NCBI RefSeq assembly: GCF_963506605.1
Contig: NC_083288.1
Location: forward strand, 29,574,001-29,638,000
Length of the DNA: 64,000 nucleotides
Reading direction: 5' to 3'
Source of the DNA: Zootoca vivipara
Lineage: Eukaryota
The position numbers are program-made. Positions 9,001-18,000 of the stretch are shown here, one piece after another (the stretch's first letter is position 1; every line of letters begins with the position of its first letter).

Positions 9001-12000
9001 GAATTCACACAATTACTAGAATGTCACATGCACACATATCTGAATTAACATCTAAGCAAAAAGTACATGTATCTTGGAGGCAGTCAGTAACACATACACT
9101 GCCCTGTGATAGGGAAGTTTCAGAATGCATGGGGGGATGCAACTTCTTTGCAACAACAACAACAACAACAACAATTTATTATTTATACCCCGCCCCTCTG
9201 GCTGGGTTTCCCCAGCCACTCTGGATGGCTTCCAACAGAAAAATAAAATAATCTATTAAACATTAAAAGCCTCCCTAAACAGGGCTGCCTTCAGATATCT
9301 TCTAAAAATCTAGTAGCTTCTTTTTCTCTTTGACATCTGATGGGAGGGTGTTCCACAGGGCGGGCGCCACCACCGAGAAAGCCACCACCGAGAAAATATG
9401 TTGCCATCTAAAGGAAGCTCAGGAGAAAATACAAAAAAGAGAAACCTCCTCACTGGACAATGCAGATTTTTACATCACTACTGAAATAAGAACAGAATAG
9501 GTACCAGAGGTATTCACCATTCCCTTAGAAACAAATGGAAGTGTGATGGAATAGCAGCATAGATAAAGGTGATTGCAATGGTCAGATCTTGAGTCAGCAG
9601 CAGTCAGAGTTTATTAAAACACCAACCAATCTGGAAGAACTGGTGAGTCAAAAAATACAGAACTTTGCTGTCAAACAGAGTGGGATTGTATGTCAGCTAG
9701 ATAGAGGGACTGTTTGTCATTTAGACAGCAACCTGAAGAGAGAAGGACCTTTTCTGATTGGGATTAGGAACTAGCTAAACATGGATGACCAATTTTATTC
9801 CTTGAAGGGGAATTAAATAGTTTAGGAGAAGTTGTAAGATAGTTGCTAGGGCAGTGAATCAAATGCCCATTATAAGTGGAAATAATCTATCCTGCAAAGT
9901 AGTTTGAAGAAAAATGCTGACTGGGGTTTTAAAGTTCAGTGTAAAGAGTGTCTGCCTGAAACTACATATTGTGTCTTACATGAATAAGCATGAGTAAAAT
10001 GAAGTGCCGTGCCTTTGAAGAGTAACCGTTAAGTTGTAACCCACAATGAGTGTAAGTAAACAGATGTATCCAGTGCTGTTACTAAGGAGAATTGTATCTT
10101 TTAAACACTGAGAAAATTGGTCATGCTATCCAGTCGCGTGTCAAGACCCTTTAAACCAACCCCCCGTTGGAATAAAGAACTTCAAACGGACACAGAATTT
10201 AAGTTTAAGGTTATTGGGCAAATTTTGGACAAAACTTTATTGATTACAAATGTGAGCGGTATTGGCTTAAGCATTGTCTAAAGACTATATCTTTATAGGA
10301 TTTTCCCCCAGGTGAAATCTATGGTATTTCCTTAGAGTTTACACCTGGTGGAAATTTACTGGTGGTTCATGCATTGCCCAGAGCTTTTAGCACAGTGGAG
10401 ATAAGCAGTGAGACTGACTGTGAGGTGGTATGTGTCAGATGATAGTTTAAAAATGGCCAGTCTCTATAAGTGCATGGACTGAACTGAGATAGGGCAAAAT
10501 AATGCTCTTCATATGGACCATCTCTACAGGCGAGACAGTGCACAGAATGTCAAGTCCATACACCCACCCGACCCCAATAGCTTCAGAATAGTGTAATGCT
10601 GTACAGTCATTGGACTAAGGGGACTAGGTTGGTCCCCTAAATGTTCCTCTGGTGCCTCCTTTCCAAAGCTTAGGAAGCTTCTGCCCAGCTTAGGGAAGTA
10701 GGTATGAGGCTAGTAGGAGACTAGCAGGCTCGATGAAGGCAAAATAAAAATTATAAAGCATCTGCTGAAAAAAGCCTTTGACTCAAAACAGATCTTTATT
10801 TGGCATTACAAAATGACTAGAAAAACGAACATCTCTGCAGAGCTCTTGTTAAATAGAAAACTCAGGACCAGACTACAATGTGCAGAATACCTGAACTATG
10901 ACTTAACACAAGGCTTTCAGTCTCAGATCCAAAAAAGATGGAGAAAAAAATGTGTGATGGAACAGGGTTATAAGCACAAATCCCACTACAACCAAAAGTG
11001 ACCGTCAAAATGCATGATGGTATCATGTGGACACATAGGTTCTCTTAACAAAAAAGTAACTTCCAGATCATATCAAATACAGGACTCAGATTGTCAAGTA
11101 TTCAAATGCAACAGAAAGCATCTACTTCAGATATCATAAAAGGGGGGGGGGGAATTGCAGAAGTAGGAGGAACACAGTGGGGGCAGGATAGTGAGCTAGT
11201 CATATCTCACACCAGTATTTTAAATATTATATAGCAAATTGTTTTGAAACAGGATGGTTTATTTACATACCTTGATTATTTGTGTTAGACCCATAGGGCA
11301 AAGTCTTTAAAAAACCACCATGGTTGTTTTTTTGTGTGACTCCTGAGTACAAGCATCCAGGAACACAATTACTAATTTGTTTGGGGCTCTTGAGAGCAAA
11401 CTCCCAGGAATATAAATGGAATAATAATAATAATTTCCACCTAATGGTAAAAGCATCATTCTGCAAGTGTATACAAACATTTTCACTGTCTCAGAAGAAA
11501 AGGAGGGAGAGAAAGAAAATGTTCCATGAGTTGCTAGAAGAATACAGAACATCTTAAAGTGATAAAGAAAATGCATCTGGAAATCTATTTTCTATAAAGG
11601 AAAAGAGTAAGGTGTTTATATATTTTTATAGCATTAGTGATACCTGGATAGCTTTTGGAGAGCAAAATGCAGACAATACTACTATACTATAGTCTATTGT
11701 GTAGAATGGGAAATTGTCCTTGTTCTAGGTTTCTCCAGAAACCTAATATCGACTGCACATAGAAAAACCAGTGACCTGGTTTCCATGACAAGCTAAGCCA
11801 AATTTTAGCTCAGTGAGACTGCATAAATGTGCAACCTCATGGAGAGAGGATTACAATTCCTTTGCTACTCCATGCTCCTTTGTACAGCCCTCACAAGCTT
11901 CACCAGGTTTTGACATAACATATAATCCAAACCAGGACTAGTGGTTAGCCTCTCTCCTAACCCACGATGAGCTGCAACCAAGAACAAACCTTCACTGCAG

Positions 12001-15000: not shown

Positions 15001-18000
15001 TCTCTCTCTCTCCGCCCTCTCTTTGCAGGCTCCCATCCCCGCGTCGGCCTGCGGATGGCGCTCTTTTCGCAATGCCTGGAGCCCACGGGCTTCCTGCAGT
15101 TGCTGCGCTCCCTGGCGCTGGGCGCGGCGTCGCAGCTGCGGGGCTCGGCGACGGCGGAGGAGTCCGCCTTCGTCCGCCGCAAGCTGGCGCTGCTGGAGCG
15201 TGACCTGGCTGCCGGGCCGGGGTTGTCGCTGGACGGCGCGGACGAGCTGGGCGCGGGCGAGGACTGCGTGTCGGCCGCCTTCCAGCAGCTGGCTCTGGCG
15301 GTGCGCGCGGCTGGCACGGCATCGGCGGTGCGCGAGACCGAGCTCTTCGTGGCCGCGTGCGCGCGCGAGAAGCTGGAGCGGCGCCTGCTGGCTGCGTGGC
15401 GGCGCGTGCAGGGCTGCAGGGTGGCGGCGCAACGGCCCTTGCTGGCGCGTGCCGTCGAGGAGCACCGGCCACGGAGGCCTGAGATGGCGGGCGTGTGCCA
15501 GAAGCTGAACGCGCTGCTGGGCGCAGGGCTGCTGTGCCTGCTGTGCCAGGCGGGCCTCACCCAGCGCGACCCGGCGCTGCTGCTGGCCGTCTGGGAAGAG
15601 CGCGTGGGCGCCGTGCACCGGCACATGAAGGAGGCGCTGGCCGCCTGCGCCCGCTACTTCCTCGAGCAAGCGCAGGACAATGTCGGGCGGGCGCTGGCCG
15701 AGCTGCCCGCGGCGGTGCCCCCCGGGCCAGCCGAGCTGGCCTCCAGCGTCCTGCGCAAGCTGGAGCAGAACTACGACTGGCTGCGCTGGGCGGTGATGGC
15801 CTGGCAGGAGGGCGGAGACGGGGCGGGCGGTGAGGAGGTGCCGGCGCGGTCGCGGGGGAAAGGTTCGGCTCCCACGCAGCAGCGGCTGCGGTTTGCGTGG
15901 CTTTCTGCTTGTTTGGGGGCTGATTTGGCGGCGCTAGCACGTTCGCCGAGTTTAGGAGCTCCACGCCGCCATCTTGCCTTGTCGGAAGTCCCAGTCTTGC
16001 GGACCCCTCTCGCATAGCTCGCGGACCCCTGGGGGTCCGCGGACCACCAGTTGGGAAACACTGGTCTAATCTGTTAAGGTCATTTTGAAGTGTGATCCTG
16101 TCCTCTGGGGTATTAGCCACCGCTCCCAATTTGGTGTCATCTGCAAACTTGCTCAGGATGCCCTCAAGCCCATCATCCAAGTCATTGATAAAGATGTTGA
16201 ATAAGACTGGGCCCAAGACAGAACCCTGTGGCACCCCACTAGTCACTACTCTCCAGGATGAGGAGGAGCCATTGATGAGCACCCTTTGGGTTCGGTCAGT
16301 CAGCCAGTTACAAATCCACTGAATGGTAGCATTGTCTAGCCCGCATTTTACCATCTTCTTTACAAGAATATCATGGGGCACCTTGTCAAAGGCCTTGCTG
16401 AAATCAAGATAGGCTACATCCACAGCGTTCCCTTCATCTAACAGGCTTGTAATTTTGTCAAAAAATGAGATCAGATTAGTCTGACATGACTTATTTTTCA
16501 GAAACCCATGCTGACTTTTAGTGATCACAGAGTTTCTTTCTAGGTGCTCACAGACTGTTTGCTTGATGATCTGCTCTAGAATCTTTCCTGGTATTGATGT
16601 CAGGCTTACTGGGCGGTAATTGTTTGGGTCCTCTTTTTTCCCCTTTTTGAAAATAGGGACAACATTTGCCCTCCTCCAGTCTGCTGGAACTTCGCCTGTT
16701 CTCCAGGAATTATCAAAGATTATTGCCAGTGGTACTGAAATCACCTCTGCCAGTTCTTTTAATACTCTTGGATGTAGTTCATCTGGCCCTGGAGACTTGA
16801 ATACATCTAAACTATTCTTGTACTACCTCCTTACTTGTTCTGGGCTGTGTTTCCCCTGCTGAATCATCTGCTCCATATTCTTCAGGTCGGGCATTGTTTT
16901 CTTTTTTGGAGAAGACTGAGGCTTCAAGCTGTTAAGGTATCCTGGACCTAAAGTTTTCCTTTAGATGAAGATTTATTATTACACTATTTTGTTCACTTCT
17001 TTTTTAAAAATCTGCATCCCACAAAAATCACATCCAAAGCAGTATTGGATAACAAATATTTGTTATCAGAAGAGGAATTAAATATATGCTTGTCTTCCTG
17101 TTTTCTTCTAGTGATGAATGCAAATATTGTCAATGAATCCTCTGTCTCTGAATTTCTACTCCTAGAGTTTTCAGCTGTACGGGAACTGCAGATTCTACAC
17201 TTCTCCCCGTTCCTGGTATTGTACCTGGCAATTGTATTTGGGAATCTTCTCATCATCTCTGCTGTAGCCTTTGACCACCACCTTCACACTCCCATGTACT
17301 TCTTTCTGATGAACTTGGCCATACAGGACCTAGGGGCTGTTTCAGTCACCATCCCCAAATCCATGGCCAATTCTCTCATGAATATCAGACACATATCTTA
17401 TGCTGGATGCATTGCTCAAGTGCTTTCATTCTTTTTCTTTGCATCATCTGATGTCGCCCTTCTTACAGTCATGGCGTATGATCGCTATGTTGCCATTTGC
17501 AATCCCTTACAATATGAAATGGTGATGAACAAGGCAGCCTGCAAACAAATGGTTGTTGGTGTGTGGGTTGCTGGAATTTTCAATGCAGTCATGCACACTA
17601 GTGCAACTTTTGCAACCCCTTTCTGCTCAAACAATGTCAATCAGTTTTTCTGTGAGATCCCACAGTTACTTACACTTGCTTGCTCAAACTTCTACCTAAC
17701 GGAAATTGGAGCTATAGTGGTGAGTATAATACTTGTTTCTGGGTGTTTTGTCTTCATTGTTGTCACTTATGTACACATCTTTACTGTGGTTTTGAACGTT
17801 CCATCTCTTCAGGGAAGGAAAAAGGCCTTCTCCACTTGCATACCTCACCTTGTTGTCTTCTCCCTATTTTGTTTCACAGGATGTTTTGCTTACCTTAGGC
17901 CTCCTTCAAAAACTCCATCTGATGGTGACTTTGCAATAACTTTGATGTATACCATTGTACCACCCATGTTCAATCCAATAATTTACAGCATGAGAAATAA

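What the first reader, a model, noticed from the sequence alone, without database searches (positions are those of the whole stretch)
11607..17113. The captured exon sits sense-strand in the OR 5'-UTR intron: a possible natural exon trap
Seen: every OR has a conserved GA|GTAAG donor upstream (here 11607) and a pyrimidine-AG acceptor just before the ATG (here 17111). In this unit the CR1/BovB/hAT nest adds ~4.6 kb to that interval. It places a strong-looking acceptor (15028) plus ATG-ORF on the OR sense strand, ahead of the OR's own acceptor. Inference: transcripts from the OR promoter could splice into the rapunzel-like ORF, expressing it in neurons that choose this OR and/or silencing an OR that looks intact.
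Basis: inference. Interest (0 to 1): 0.75.

Follow-up and report, generated by a model that had tools for sequence, protein, structure and literature searches.

The report
Transposon-carried gene exon inside smell-receptor intron
A small cut-and-paste transposon carrying a copied exon of an unrelated lizard gene sits, in the same orientation, just upstream of an intact smell-receptor gene and looks able to be spliced into its message, but no data show that it is.

Summary
Relative to its tandem paralogs, the OR14A16-like gene at 17114-18100 carries a 4,560-bp nested insertion (12364-16923). This is an antisense CR1-like LINE, split by a sense BovB-like LINE and by a 1,375-bp non-autonomous hAT-like element (14689-16063, perfect 8-bp target duplication).

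The hAT element carries about 1.2 kb copied from genomic DNA of a rapunzel-like (PF27742) gene: a splice acceptor, the first coding exon (261 codons) and the start of the next intron. It is a "Pack-TIR", a kind already catalogued in animals.

The acceptor at 15028 ranks 2nd of 427 AGs, above the OR's own (6th), and has a CTAAC branch site.
- The exon also keeps a donor (15830 or 15838) and has no poly(A) signal after it, so it would be a cassette exon, not a terminal trap.
- The product would lack the conserved C-terminal third.
- The antisense CR1 offers an even stronger decoy exon (14244-14390).

By frame arithmetic, 15830 joined to 17112 is in frame with the OR; 15838 gives a stop overlapping the OR's ATG.

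No transcript data could be reached, and no annotated chimeric protein was found. The trap is plausible but untested. A neutral, young passenger insertion is the most likely reading.

The parts
11607..11612 (+).
   Evidence: Sequence. PWM 5.82 bits, rank 6 of 265 GTs in 11300-17200. Present in 6 of 8 paralogous blocks but no better conserved than its flanks.
11967..12012 (+). Alternative upstream exon piece (ATG at 11967) with donor CTA|GTGAGT at 12007
   Evidence: PWM 6.96, rank 3 of 265. The N-termini of lacertid models P0041, P0042 and P0045 are homologous to this piece, in two different reading frames.
12364..16923 (-). Outer CR1-like LINE, 5'-truncated and antisense to the OR; the whole 4,560-bp insertion that the paralogs lack
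   Evidence: Paralog homology breaks at 12363 and 16924. (ATAGAATC)x3.6 terminal repeat at 12355-12383. Minus-strand RVT_1 ORF at 16069-16822, E 1.5e-29. The name CR1 rests on recalled hallmarks.
12500..14009 (+). BovB-like LINE nested in the CR1, sense to the OR, with a 412-codon RT ORF at 12758-13996
   Evidence: RVT_1, E 7.5e-35. AGAAGGAG repeated at 12492-12499 and 14010-14017. ATTAAA on the + strand at 13267 and 13460. The name BovB is recalled.
14244..14390 (+). Potential 147-nt decoy exon in the antisense CR1
   Evidence: Acceptor at 14243 is rank 1 of 427 (13.2 bits); donor at 14391 is rank 1 of 265 (11.3 bits).
14689..16063 (+). Non-autonomous hAT-like element carrying captured host DNA (Pack-TIR). 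Terminal inverted repeats CAGGGGTTCCCAAC / GTTGGGAAACACTG; 8-bp target duplication GTCTAATC at 14681-14688 and 16064-16071
   Evidence: Sequence. Its termini match those of a 459-bp copy at 26003-26461: 97.6% over 82 bp and 90.5% over 74 bp. The 23-nt terminus occurs 2 times against 0 expected.
14795..15994 (+). Captured host segment of about 1.2 kb, replacing the roughly 310-bp interior of the short element
   Evidence: Comparison with the short copy. A 16-bp x2.6 tandem repeat at the left junction, 14754-14794. GC 0.75 and CpG o/e 0.98 in the exon against 0.17-0.49 in the neighbouring segments measured.
14987..15028 (+). 3' splice-site signals of the captured exon: CTAAC branch site (A at 14990), pyrimidine tract, CAG|G
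   Evidence: PWM 12.59, rank 2 of 427. 18 of 20 pyrimidines. Branch A 38 nt from the AG, and no AG between them.
15055..15837 (+). Captured first coding exon of a rapunzel-like (PF27742) gene, 261 codons
   Evidence: 223 of 257 aligned residues (86.8%) identical to Podarcis muralis LOC144327439. Homology is lost between codons 252 and 262.
15830..15843 (+). Two candidate donors: GCG|GTGAGG at 15830 (phase 1) and GAG|GTGCCG at 15838 (phase 0, where protein homology ends)
   Evidence: PWM 8.06 (rank 2 of 265) and 2.85 (rank 38).
15838..16017 (+). Read-through tail of the 320-codon ORF, running into captured intron sequence and the hAT terminus, with stop TAG ending at 16017
   Evidence: no homology to the parent family after residue 261.
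17098..17111 (+). The OR's own acceptor (ctgttttcttctAG), 2 nt before the ATG. An 18-bp deletion relative to the paralog at 38007 shortens the leader
   Evidence: PWM 8.86, rank 6 of 427; paralogs score 8.5-10.3.
17114..18100 (+). Intact OR14A16-like olfactory receptor coding exon (328 codons)
   Evidence: 7tm_4, E 1.8e-45. 91% identical to a Zootoca vivipara model. dN/dS 0.36 against the paralog at 54164.
26003..26461 (-). Short (459 bp) copy of the same hAT-like element without captured DNA, in the equivalent interval of the neighbouring OR unit; target duplication GACTATAG

Best explanation
The window is a tandem array of OR14A16-like receptor genes of a lacertid lizard. Two of its ORs are identical to named Zootoca vivipara models.

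In the unit at 17114, a CR1-like LINE inserted antisense into the interval between the upstream non-coding exon(s) and the coding exon. A BovB-like LINE (sense) and a non-autonomous hAT-like element (sense) then inserted into that CR1.

The hAT element is a Pack-TIR. Its interior was replaced, probably by template switching during repair or replication, with about 1.2 kb of genomic DNA from a rapunzel-like gene. That DNA comprises the end of an intron or upstream region with a full 3' splice site, the first coding exon, and about 157 bp of the following intron.

Shown here: the nest, its order of insertion, the target duplications, the parentage of the exon, the presence and rank of the splice signals, and the youth of the copy.

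Inferred: that the interval is an intron of the OR transcript, and that the fragment is a neutral passenger, mostly removed with the intron. At most it would be included in a minority of transcripts as a cassette exon in the 5' leader. No function of its own is expected, because it lacks the conserved C-terminal third of the protein.
For: - Insertion limits come from the paralogs.
- There are RT ORFs on opposite strands, and the minus-strand one is interrupted by the hAT element.
- The element has a perfect 8-bp target duplication, and its termini are shared with a 459-bp copy.
- All 22 protein hits carry PF27742. The best is a 378-aa Podarcis muralis protein.
- Homology covers only residues 1-261, and no C-terminal exon lies anywhere in the window.
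- The copy is young: CpG o/e 0.98 (109 CpG in 809 bp) against 0.17-0.49 in the neighbouring segments measured; no excess divergence relative to the Podarcis ortholog in 6 of 7 outgroup tests; 64 of 67 family-invariant positions kept.
- The same interval has taken up other transposons in neighbouring units without loss of the OR ORF. The unit at 27645 holds the 459-bp element; the unit at 7651 has about 840 bp of extra sequence.
- OR17114 has dN/dS 0.36, within the paralog range of 0.26-0.43.
- No protein of 176-560 aa or 561-2000 aa in the database contains this exon at more than 84% identity.
- Pack-TIRs are documented in animals. hAT is the commonest carrier (208 of 370) and 13.4% capture exonic sequence (PMC8277862, passages).
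Against: - The splice signals are better than a passive passenger needs. The acceptor is rank 2 of 427, the donor rank 2 of 265, and there is a consensus branch site. Substantial inclusion therefore cannot be excluded.
- Private changes in OR17114 are 7 non-synonymous to 3 synonymous, including L32P in the first membrane helix. This is the highest ratio of the five ORs, though the counts are too small to mean much.
- The transcription start site of this OR is unknown.
- The absence of an annotated chimeric protein is weak evidence. The database is clustered at 90% identity, and olfactory tissue is rarely sampled.
Confidence: 0.55

Rival explanations
1. Natural exon trap. OR17114 pre-mRNA splices from its 5' exon (donor 11607 or 12007) into 15029, out again at 15830 or 15838, and into 17112.

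With 15830, the 258 codons plus one base of the captured ORF join in frame to the OR ATG, giving an N-terminally extended receptor that is probably non-functional. With 15838, a 261-codon upstream ORF ends at a TGA overlapping the OR ATG. Either way, output of normal receptor falls.
For: - Sense orientation and strong signals: acceptor 12.6 bits against 8.9 for the OR's own; donor 8.1 bits; CTAAC branch site at -38; no AG in between.
- Frame arithmetic.
- No poly(A) signal between 13460 and 17077, so transcription should reach the OR exon.
- Mouse OR genes usually have 5' exons and alternative inclusion: 866 of 913 rebuilt models have 5' exons (PMC4154679, passages).
- At least 30% of animal Pack-TIRs examined are transcribed as chimeras, some as alternative 5' UTRs (PMC8277862, passages).
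Against: - No transcript data were available, and no annotated chimera was found.
- An 801-809-nt internal exon is much longer than typical internal exons (general knowledge, recalled).
- The CR1-antisense decoy at 14244-14390 scores higher on both sites. The sense BovB carries two ATTAAA. Other outcomes therefore compete.
- OR dN/dS is ordinary.
- The 1-in-3 chance of being in frame makes the fusion frame unremarkable.
Confidence: 0.2
2. The insertion is not in the OR transcript at all. The OR starts transcription downstream of 16923, or the upstream blocks are not exons, so the nest is intergenic and irrelevant to the OR message.
For: - The upstream block shows no conservation footprint above background.
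- The two Zootoca models that map at 100% in the window use different upstream exons (1315-1437 and 36717-36744). They also use very weak acceptors, whose equivalents at 17039 and 17042 score -1 bit, ranks 182 and 189 of 427. The annotated 5' structures are therefore unreliable.
- An A/T-rich stretch lies 30-110 nt upstream of the ATG.
Against: - A strong, paralog-conserved acceptor sits 2-20 nt before every OR ATG, 5 of 5. That is hard to explain without an upstream exon.
- Lacertid models P0042 and P0045 join an exon homologous to 11967-12006 to a point about 20 nt before the ATG, in two different frames.
- Most mouse ORs have 5' exons.
Confidence: 0.2
3. The captured fragment brings its own promoter, namely the 5' edge of a CpG island with a CT-rich tract. 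It is then transcribed independently of OR choice, giving a truncated rapunzel-like transcript that may splice on into the OR exon (ectopic OR message), or that acts on the parent gene through RNA.
For: - The exon is a full CpG island (GC 0.75, CpG o/e 0.98) inside CpG-poor DNA.
- Every homolog starts at the same Met 27 nt after the AG, so the parent's 5' UTR within this exon is short, or the exon could be the parent's first exon.
Against: - The 234 bp upstream of the AG are not island-like (GC 0.52, CpG o/e 0.35).
- That stretch ends in a textbook branch site, pyrimidine tract and CAG, which argues for an internal exon.
- The parent gene's structure could not be examined.
Confidence: 0.05

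Closest known systems
Pack-TIR elements of animals (DNA-transposon transduplication; Tan et al. 2021, PMC8277862; analogous to plant Pack-MULEs)
   Same: A non-autonomous TIR element, here hAT-like, the commonest carrier in that survey, whose interior is replaced by host DNA with an identifiable parent. A repeat or microhomology sits at a junction. It is inserted in or near another gene and has the potential for chimeric transcripts, including alternative 5' UTRs.
   Different: The captured piece is about 1.2 kb against a reported median of 224 bp. It is a complete coding exon with both splice sites. No parent lies within the window, whereas single-copy cases are usually within 15 kb of the parent. 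Copy number and transcription are unknown here.
Exonisation of intronic transposable elements (cassette exons from antisense SINE/LINE sequence)
   Same: Intronic insert offering acceptor and donor pairs; the candidate exon would sit in a 5' leader.
   Different: Here the best-known route, an antisense retroelement (14244-14390), coexists with a ready-made host exon delivered by a DNA transposon. Neither has transcript evidence.
Laboratory gene-trap / exon-trap cassettes
   Same: A splice acceptor followed by an ATG-ORF, placed in sense in an intron upstream of the coding exon.
   Different: Laboratory traps end in a poly(A) signal and truncate the host message. This insert has a donor and no poly(A) signal, so it would behave as an inserted internal exon.
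Rapunzel (Rpz) proteins
   Same: All 22 database relatives carry the precomputed family PF27742, and one (Varanus komodoensis) is named 'Protein rapunzel'. Zebrafish Rpz5 is described as a brake on interferon signalling (passages in bioRxiv 10.1101/2025.08.09.669486 and PMC13563047).
   Different: Only the N-terminal helical part is present, and the conserved C-terminal third is missing. Kinship to zebrafish Rpz itself was not tested here: the local Pfam copy lacks PF27742.

Membership tests
Pack-TIR (transduplicating DNA transposon) | Both ends are the termini of one TIR element family, in inverted orientation | tested here: met
   Termini match the two ends of the 459-bp copy at 26003-26461: 97.6% over 82 bp and 90.5% over 74 bp. 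TIRs match at 11 of 14 positions.
Pack-TIR (transduplicating DNA transposon) | The interior is non-transposon host sequence with an identifiable parent gene | tested here: met
   The interior encodes 261 codons that are 86.8% identical to a Podarcis muralis protein. The parental locus in the same genome could not be examined.
Pack-TIR (transduplicating DNA transposon) | Target-site duplication flanking the whole unit | tested here: met
   GTCTAATC at 14681-14688 and 16064-16071, 8 of 8 identical.
hAT superfamily | 8-bp target duplication and short TIRs | tested here: met
   Two independent insertions each have an 8-bp duplication, GTCTAATC and GACTATAG.
hAT superfamily | hAT transposase of the autonomous partner | not testable with these tools
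   Both copies are non-autonomous, and no eukaryotic genome collection was available to find the autonomous element.
Rapunzel-like protein family (PF27742) | Significant match to the family model | not testable with these tools
   The local Pfam copy returns no family for P0001, P0002, P0019 or P0021. PF27742 is known only from the precomputed labels on 22 of 22 hits.
Rapunzel-like protein family (PF27742) | Full-length architecture: N-terminal helical bundle plus conserved C-terminal region | tested here: not met
   Only residues 1-261 are homologous. The C-terminal part of about 115 residues is absent from the window. The AlphaFold2 model of the Podarcis ortholog puts helices at 10-239 and a mixed beta/alpha region after that. 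The captured piece is a gene fragment, not a family member gene.
Olfactory receptor gene with a spliced 5' non-coding exon | Acceptor just upstream of the ATG and a donor-bearing upstream exon | tested here: met
   Acceptor present in 5 of 5 units at 8.5-10.3 bits (8.9 in this unit). Donors at 11607 and 12007.
Olfactory receptor gene with a spliced 5' non-coding exon | Transcript evidence for the junction and the start site | not testable with these tools
   No RNA data were available. There are only annotated protein models whose evidence is unknown.
Natural exon trap / exonised insert | Chimeric transcripts joining host exon and insert | not testable with these tools
   No RNA data. No chimeric protein in the database, which is weak negative evidence.

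The most novel reading that the evidence does not exclude
The hAT-delivered exon is efficiently used (acceptor 15028, donor 15830). One member of a near-identical OR array then makes a rapunzel-N-terminus-OR fusion (258 + 1 + 328 residues), or a long-uORF message, instead of a normal receptor.

This would be a naturally 'trapped' OR allele. Neurons choosing it would express a truncated innate-immunity-type protein and, lacking a working receptor, might fail to stabilise their choice. That gives a natural experiment on OR feedback in a reptile, and a case of a vertebrate DNA transposon shuffling a complete, splice-competent exon into another gene.
Probability: 0.12. Interest if true: 0.6.

Novelty: new member of a known kind. 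Interest (0 to 1): 0.35.

Why it matters
If the exon is used, this would be a clear vertebrate example of exon shuffling by a cut-and-paste transposon: a whole coding exon with both splice sites, delivered in sense into another gene. It would also be a built-in contrast between a 'trapped' OR and its insertion-free paralog at 54164, for studying how 5' leader structure affects OR expression.

If the exon is not used, this is one more young Pack-TIR sitting harmlessly in an intron that visibly tolerates transposon insertions. It would be useful mainly as an annotation caution: an intact 320-codon ORF that is not a gene.

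Tried and rejected
- The listing of cluster members, to see whether the ORF or the ORs are annotated as such, could not be run because the database was switched off.
- Pfam on the captured ORF and three relatives gave no family; the local copy lacks PF27742.
- A search for longer proteins (561-2000 aa) containing the exon found none. This is weak evidence.
- A phylogenetic footprint around the putative promoter and exon 1 among paralogs was looked for and not found; identity is flat.
- The test for relaxed constraint on OR17114 was inconclusive: dN/dS 0.36; 7 non-synonymous to 3 synonymous private changes.
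- ORF openness as a sign of selection is rejected. 2 of 6 frames of the exon are stop-free, a composition-matched shuffle is open in 1.4% of trials, and the copy is simply young.
- The fold of the parent protein was modelled (mean pLDDT 78). It found 0 PDB matches at E <= 0.001 among the 500 best matches listed at E <= 10.
- ESM Atlas look-alikes point to helical tethering-complex families (COG4, RINT1, Sec6) at 0.90-0.93. These are leads only and were not pursued.
- Rfam over 11000-18500 returned nothing.
- Literature searches for Zootoca OR work and for rapunzel in lizards returned nothing relevant (listings only). One search for OR start sites and non-coding exons returned 0 papers.
- Promoter motifs in the upstream block (a TATAAA-like site, homeodomain-like and O/E-like sites) were noted by eye only. 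They rest on recalled consensus sequences, so they are not used as evidence.

Full report
**What is in the window**

The window holds five intact, same-strand OR genes: 7651-8631, 17114-18100, 27645-28601, 38007-38993 and 54164-55153.
- They are OR14A16-like (7tm_4, E 1.8e-45).
- The ORs at 7651 and 38007 are 100% identical over 326 and 328 residues to named NCBI models of Zootoca vivipara, P0037 and P0035. The source is therefore that species or something indistinguishable from it.
- The only N run is 60401-60545. It was left alone.

**Checking the observation**

- AGA|GTAAGG, with G at 11607.
- ...ctctttgcAG ending at 15028, with ATG at 15055.
- ttttcttctAG ending at 17111, with the OR ATG at 17114.

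A 101-nt block around the donor occurs 8 times in the window.
- GAGTAAG is kept in 6 of the 8 copies, including one upstream of each of the five ORs.
- An orphan block near 32910 has GAATAAG, and one near 43554 has GCGTAAG.

The acceptor recurs before all five ATGs. In this unit an 18-bp deletion leaves only 2 nt between the AG and the ATG.

The word "conserved" needs care. The units are recent tandem copies, and identity to the two older units is flat (about 0.7-0.86) across the putative promoter, exon and intron. The donor's survival therefore shows nothing about selection.

**The insertion**

Homology to the paralogs breaks at 12363 and 16924, so the insertion is 4,560 bp. It has three parts.
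- **Outer element.** A LINE on the minus strand, with an (ATAGAATC)x3.6 end at 12355-12383. Its RT ORF at 16069-16822 (RVT_1, E 1.5e-29) is cut by the hAT element.
- **Second LINE.** It lies on the plus strand at 12500-14009, has an open 412-codon RT ORF (RVT_1, E 7.5e-35) and a flanking AGAAGGAG repeat.
- **hAT-like element.** It runs 14689-16063, with TIRs CAGGGGTTCCCAAC / GTTGGGAAACACTG and a perfect 8-bp duplication GTCTAATC.

The names CR1 and BovB rest on hallmarks I recall, not on a library search.

A 459-bp copy of the same hAT-like element, with its own 8-bp duplication GACTATAG, lies at 26003-26461 on the minus strand, in the equivalent interval of the next OR unit. Comparing the two copies shows that about 310 bp of interior has been replaced here by about 1.2 kb (14795-15994). 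A 16-bp x2.6 tandem repeat sits at the left junction, and a short TCTTGC-type repeat at the right one.

**What was captured**

The 320-codon ORF (15055-16017, P0001) has 22 relatives at E <= 0.001.
- All 22 carry the precomputed label PF27742. They comprise 14 named squamates, 1 turtle, 3 teleosts and 4 unnamed entries.
- The best is a 378-aa Podarcis muralis protein.
- One Varanus entry is named "Protein rapunzel".
- The local Pfam copy has no model for the family.

Homology covers residues 1-261 only (223 of 257 aligned residues identical, 86.8%). It is lost just where GAG|GTGCCG (15838) or, 8 nt earlier, GCG|GTGAGG (15830) occurs. After that point the ORF reads unrelated sequence and the hAT terminus.

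No C-terminal exon exists anywhere in the window. The piece is therefore genomic DNA: upstream sequence with a 3' splice site, the first coding exon, and the start of the next intron.

An AlphaFold2 model of the Podarcis protein (mean pLDDT 78) shows a helical bundle at 10-239, followed by a mixed beta/alpha region that the fragment lacks. The model has no PDB match at E <= 0.001.

**Age and constraint**

- The exon is still a full CpG island (GC 0.75, CpG o/e 0.98, 109 CpG in 809 bp). Its neighbours score 0.17-0.49.
- It has not diverged faster than the Podarcis ortholog: 6 of 7 outgroup relative-rate tests were non-significant, and one (Varanus) gave p = 0.012.
- It keeps 64 of 67 positions that are invariant in the 19 non-teleost relatives, which include the 4 unnamed ones. 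One of the three changes is at the ragged alignment end.
- Two of six frames of the exon are stop-free, and 1.4% of shuffles are open in a given frame.

Together these say "young copy of a real exon", not "ORF maintained by selection". The insertion is absent from the two closest units and so post-dates a duplication with dS 0.074.

**Could it be spliced into the OR message?**

I ranked every AG and GT on the plus strand of 11300-17200 with two simple frequency matrices. I wrote these from memory of the classic vertebrate tables, so they are approximate and used for ranking only.

Acceptors (427 AGs):

| Site | Score (bits) | Rank | Note |
|---|---|---|---|
| 14243 | 13.2 | 1 | antisense CR1 |
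| 15028 | 12.6 | 2 | captured exon |
| 17111 | 8.9 | 6 | the OR's own |

Site 15028 also has 18 of 20 pyrimidines, a CTAAC branch site with its A 38 nt upstream, and no AG in between.

Donors (265 GTs):

| Site | Score (bits) | Rank |
|---|---|---|
| 14391 | 11.3 | 1 |
| 15830 | 8.1 | 2 |
| 12007 | 7.0 | 3 |
| 11607 | 5.8 | 6 |
| 15838 | 2.9 | 38 |

1. The exon keeps a good donor, and no AATAAA or ATTAAA lies on the plus strand between 13460 and 17077. The expected event is inclusion as an 801- or 809-nt cassette exon, not termination.
2. The antisense CR1 offers a 147-nt decoy exon (14244-14390) with the best acceptor and the best donor of the region.
3. The sense BovB carries two ATTAAA (13267, 13460).

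**Predicted products**

These come from arithmetic only.
- With donor 15830, the ORF contributes 775 nt (phase 1). The 2 nt between the acceptor at 17111 and the ATG complete a codon, so the reading frame runs into the OR: 258 residues + 1 + 328.
- With donor 15838 (phase 0), the next codon is a TGA that overlaps the OR ATG.

Being in frame is a 1-in-3 event and carries no weight by itself.

**Is the interval an intron?**

This is the weakest link.

For:
- A strong acceptor sits 2-20 nt before every ATG, which implies an upstream exon.
- Lacertid models P0041, P0042 and P0045 begin in a piece homologous to 11967-12006, in two different reading frames.
- In both models that map at 100% in this window, the insertion-equivalent site lies inside the annotated intron: P0037 (exon 1315-1437) and P0035 (exon 36717-36744).
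- In mouse, 866 of 913 rebuilt OR models have 5' exons (PMC4154679, passages read).

Against:
- P0035, P0037 and P0041 use acceptors whose equivalents here score about -1 bit (ranks 182 and 189 of 427), so they look ORF-driven.
- I cannot see what evidence lies behind any of these models.

**Effect on the OR**

OR17114 is intact. Its dN/dS is 0.36 against its closest paralog, within the range of 0.26-0.43 for all pairs. It has 7 private non-synonymous and 3 private synonymous changes, including L32P. That is suggestive at most.

The same interval holds the 459-bp element in the 27645 unit and about 840 bp of extra sequence in the 7651 unit. Insertions there are evidently tolerated.

**Comparison with what is known**

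Tan et al. 2021 (PMC8277862, passages read) report:
- 370 young Pack-TIRs in 100 animal genomes, 208 of them on hAT elements.
- A median captured length of 224 bp, with 13.4% of captures including exonic sequence.
- At least 30% transcribed as chimeras, some as alternative 5' UTRs.
- Most single-copy cases arising by gap filling from a template within 15 kb.

This case fits that kind. It differs in size (about 1.2 kb), in carrying a whole splice-competent coding exon, and in having no parent within the window.

Earlier literature called transduplication unknown in animals (PMC2572040, abstract in listing).

Rapunzel proteins are described as teleost-conserved and absent from mammals (bioRxiv 10.1101/2025.08.09.669486, passages). 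Homologs in planarians are linked to TBK1 signalling (PMC13563047, passages). My searches found nothing on rapunzel homologs in lizards or on Zootoca OR transcripts (listings).

**What stayed unchecked**

- The parent locus and its exon structure.
- The copy number of the Pack element.
- Whether the insertion is polymorphic.
- Any RNA evidence.

No eukaryotic DNA or RNA collection was open. 

**Verdict**

The anatomy is real and neatly resolved. It is a new member of a known kind. The exon-trap idea is mechanistically reasonable and cheaply testable, but has no support beyond sequence signals. A neutral, young passenger is the more likely reading.

Noticed in passing
26003-26461 (- strand): A 459-bp copy of the same hAT-like element without captured DNA, with 8-bp duplication GACTATAG. 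It sits in the equivalent upstream interval of the OR at 27645, so this family has hit the array at least twice.
   Followed up: yes
14244-14390 (+ strand): The antisense CR1 sequence holds the top-ranked acceptor (14243) and top-ranked donor (14391) of the whole 5.9-kb region. That makes it a 147-nt candidate decoy exon at least as good as the captured one.
   Followed up: partly
7563-7650, 37914-38006, 17040-17113 and paralogs: The frame upstream of each OR ATG is open for about 30 codons. NCBI Zootoca models P0037 and P0035 read through the strong acceptor and use very weak AAAG/CAG acceptors to add 40-70 N-terminal residues from unrelated upstream pieces (1315-1437; 36717-36744). These are probably annotation artefacts.
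   Followed up: partly
17093-17113: An 18-bp in-frame deletion relative to the 38007 unit removes the leader between the acceptor and the ATG, leaving 2 nt. In this unit and in 38007 the first of two ATGs is GTG.
   Followed up: partly
11000-12363 versus 16948-18275: Mosaic ancestry. The upstream half of this unit is closest to the 7651 unit (95.8%, against 90.9% to the 54164 unit). The coding half is closest to the 54164 unit (94.5%, against 84.9% to 7651). The switch coincides with the insertion site, suggesting unequal crossing-over or gene conversion.
   Followed up: no
32910-33000 and 43554-45863: There is an orphan upstream block with the donor GT changed to AT and no OR after it. There is also a unit whose OR copy (44903-45863) lacks about 160 bp relative to the others and has a stop upstream; this is probably a pseudogene.
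   Followed up: no
55500-56372 (+) and 60329-61288 (-); 59634-59934: GC-rich inverted duplicates encode the same alanine-rich start followed by S/F/L-rich low-complexity ORFs, just downstream of the OR at 54164. They flank an assembly gap (60401-60545). 18100-18400 matches 59934-59634 in inverted orientation (96.7%).
   Followed up: no
47776-49328 (- strand): Two long minus-strand ORFs (240 and 219 codons) in a GC-richer stretch look like parts of another retroelement. This was judged by eye only; no family search was run on them.
   Followed up: no
15055-15837 and relatives P0002-P0023: The rapunzel-like family (PF27742) has clear single-copy-looking members in 14 named squamates and a sea turtle, although the papers read describe it as teleost-conserved. 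The AlphaFold2 model has an N-terminal helical bundle with no PDB match. ESM Atlas look-alikes are helical tethering-complex families (0.90-0.93, leads only).
   Followed up: partly
11340-11430: About 180-270 nt upstream of the 11607 donor lie a TATAAA-like site and AATT-rich / TCCCAGG-like motifs that resemble, from memory, homeodomain and O/E sites of mouse OR promoters. They were not tested.
   Followed up: no
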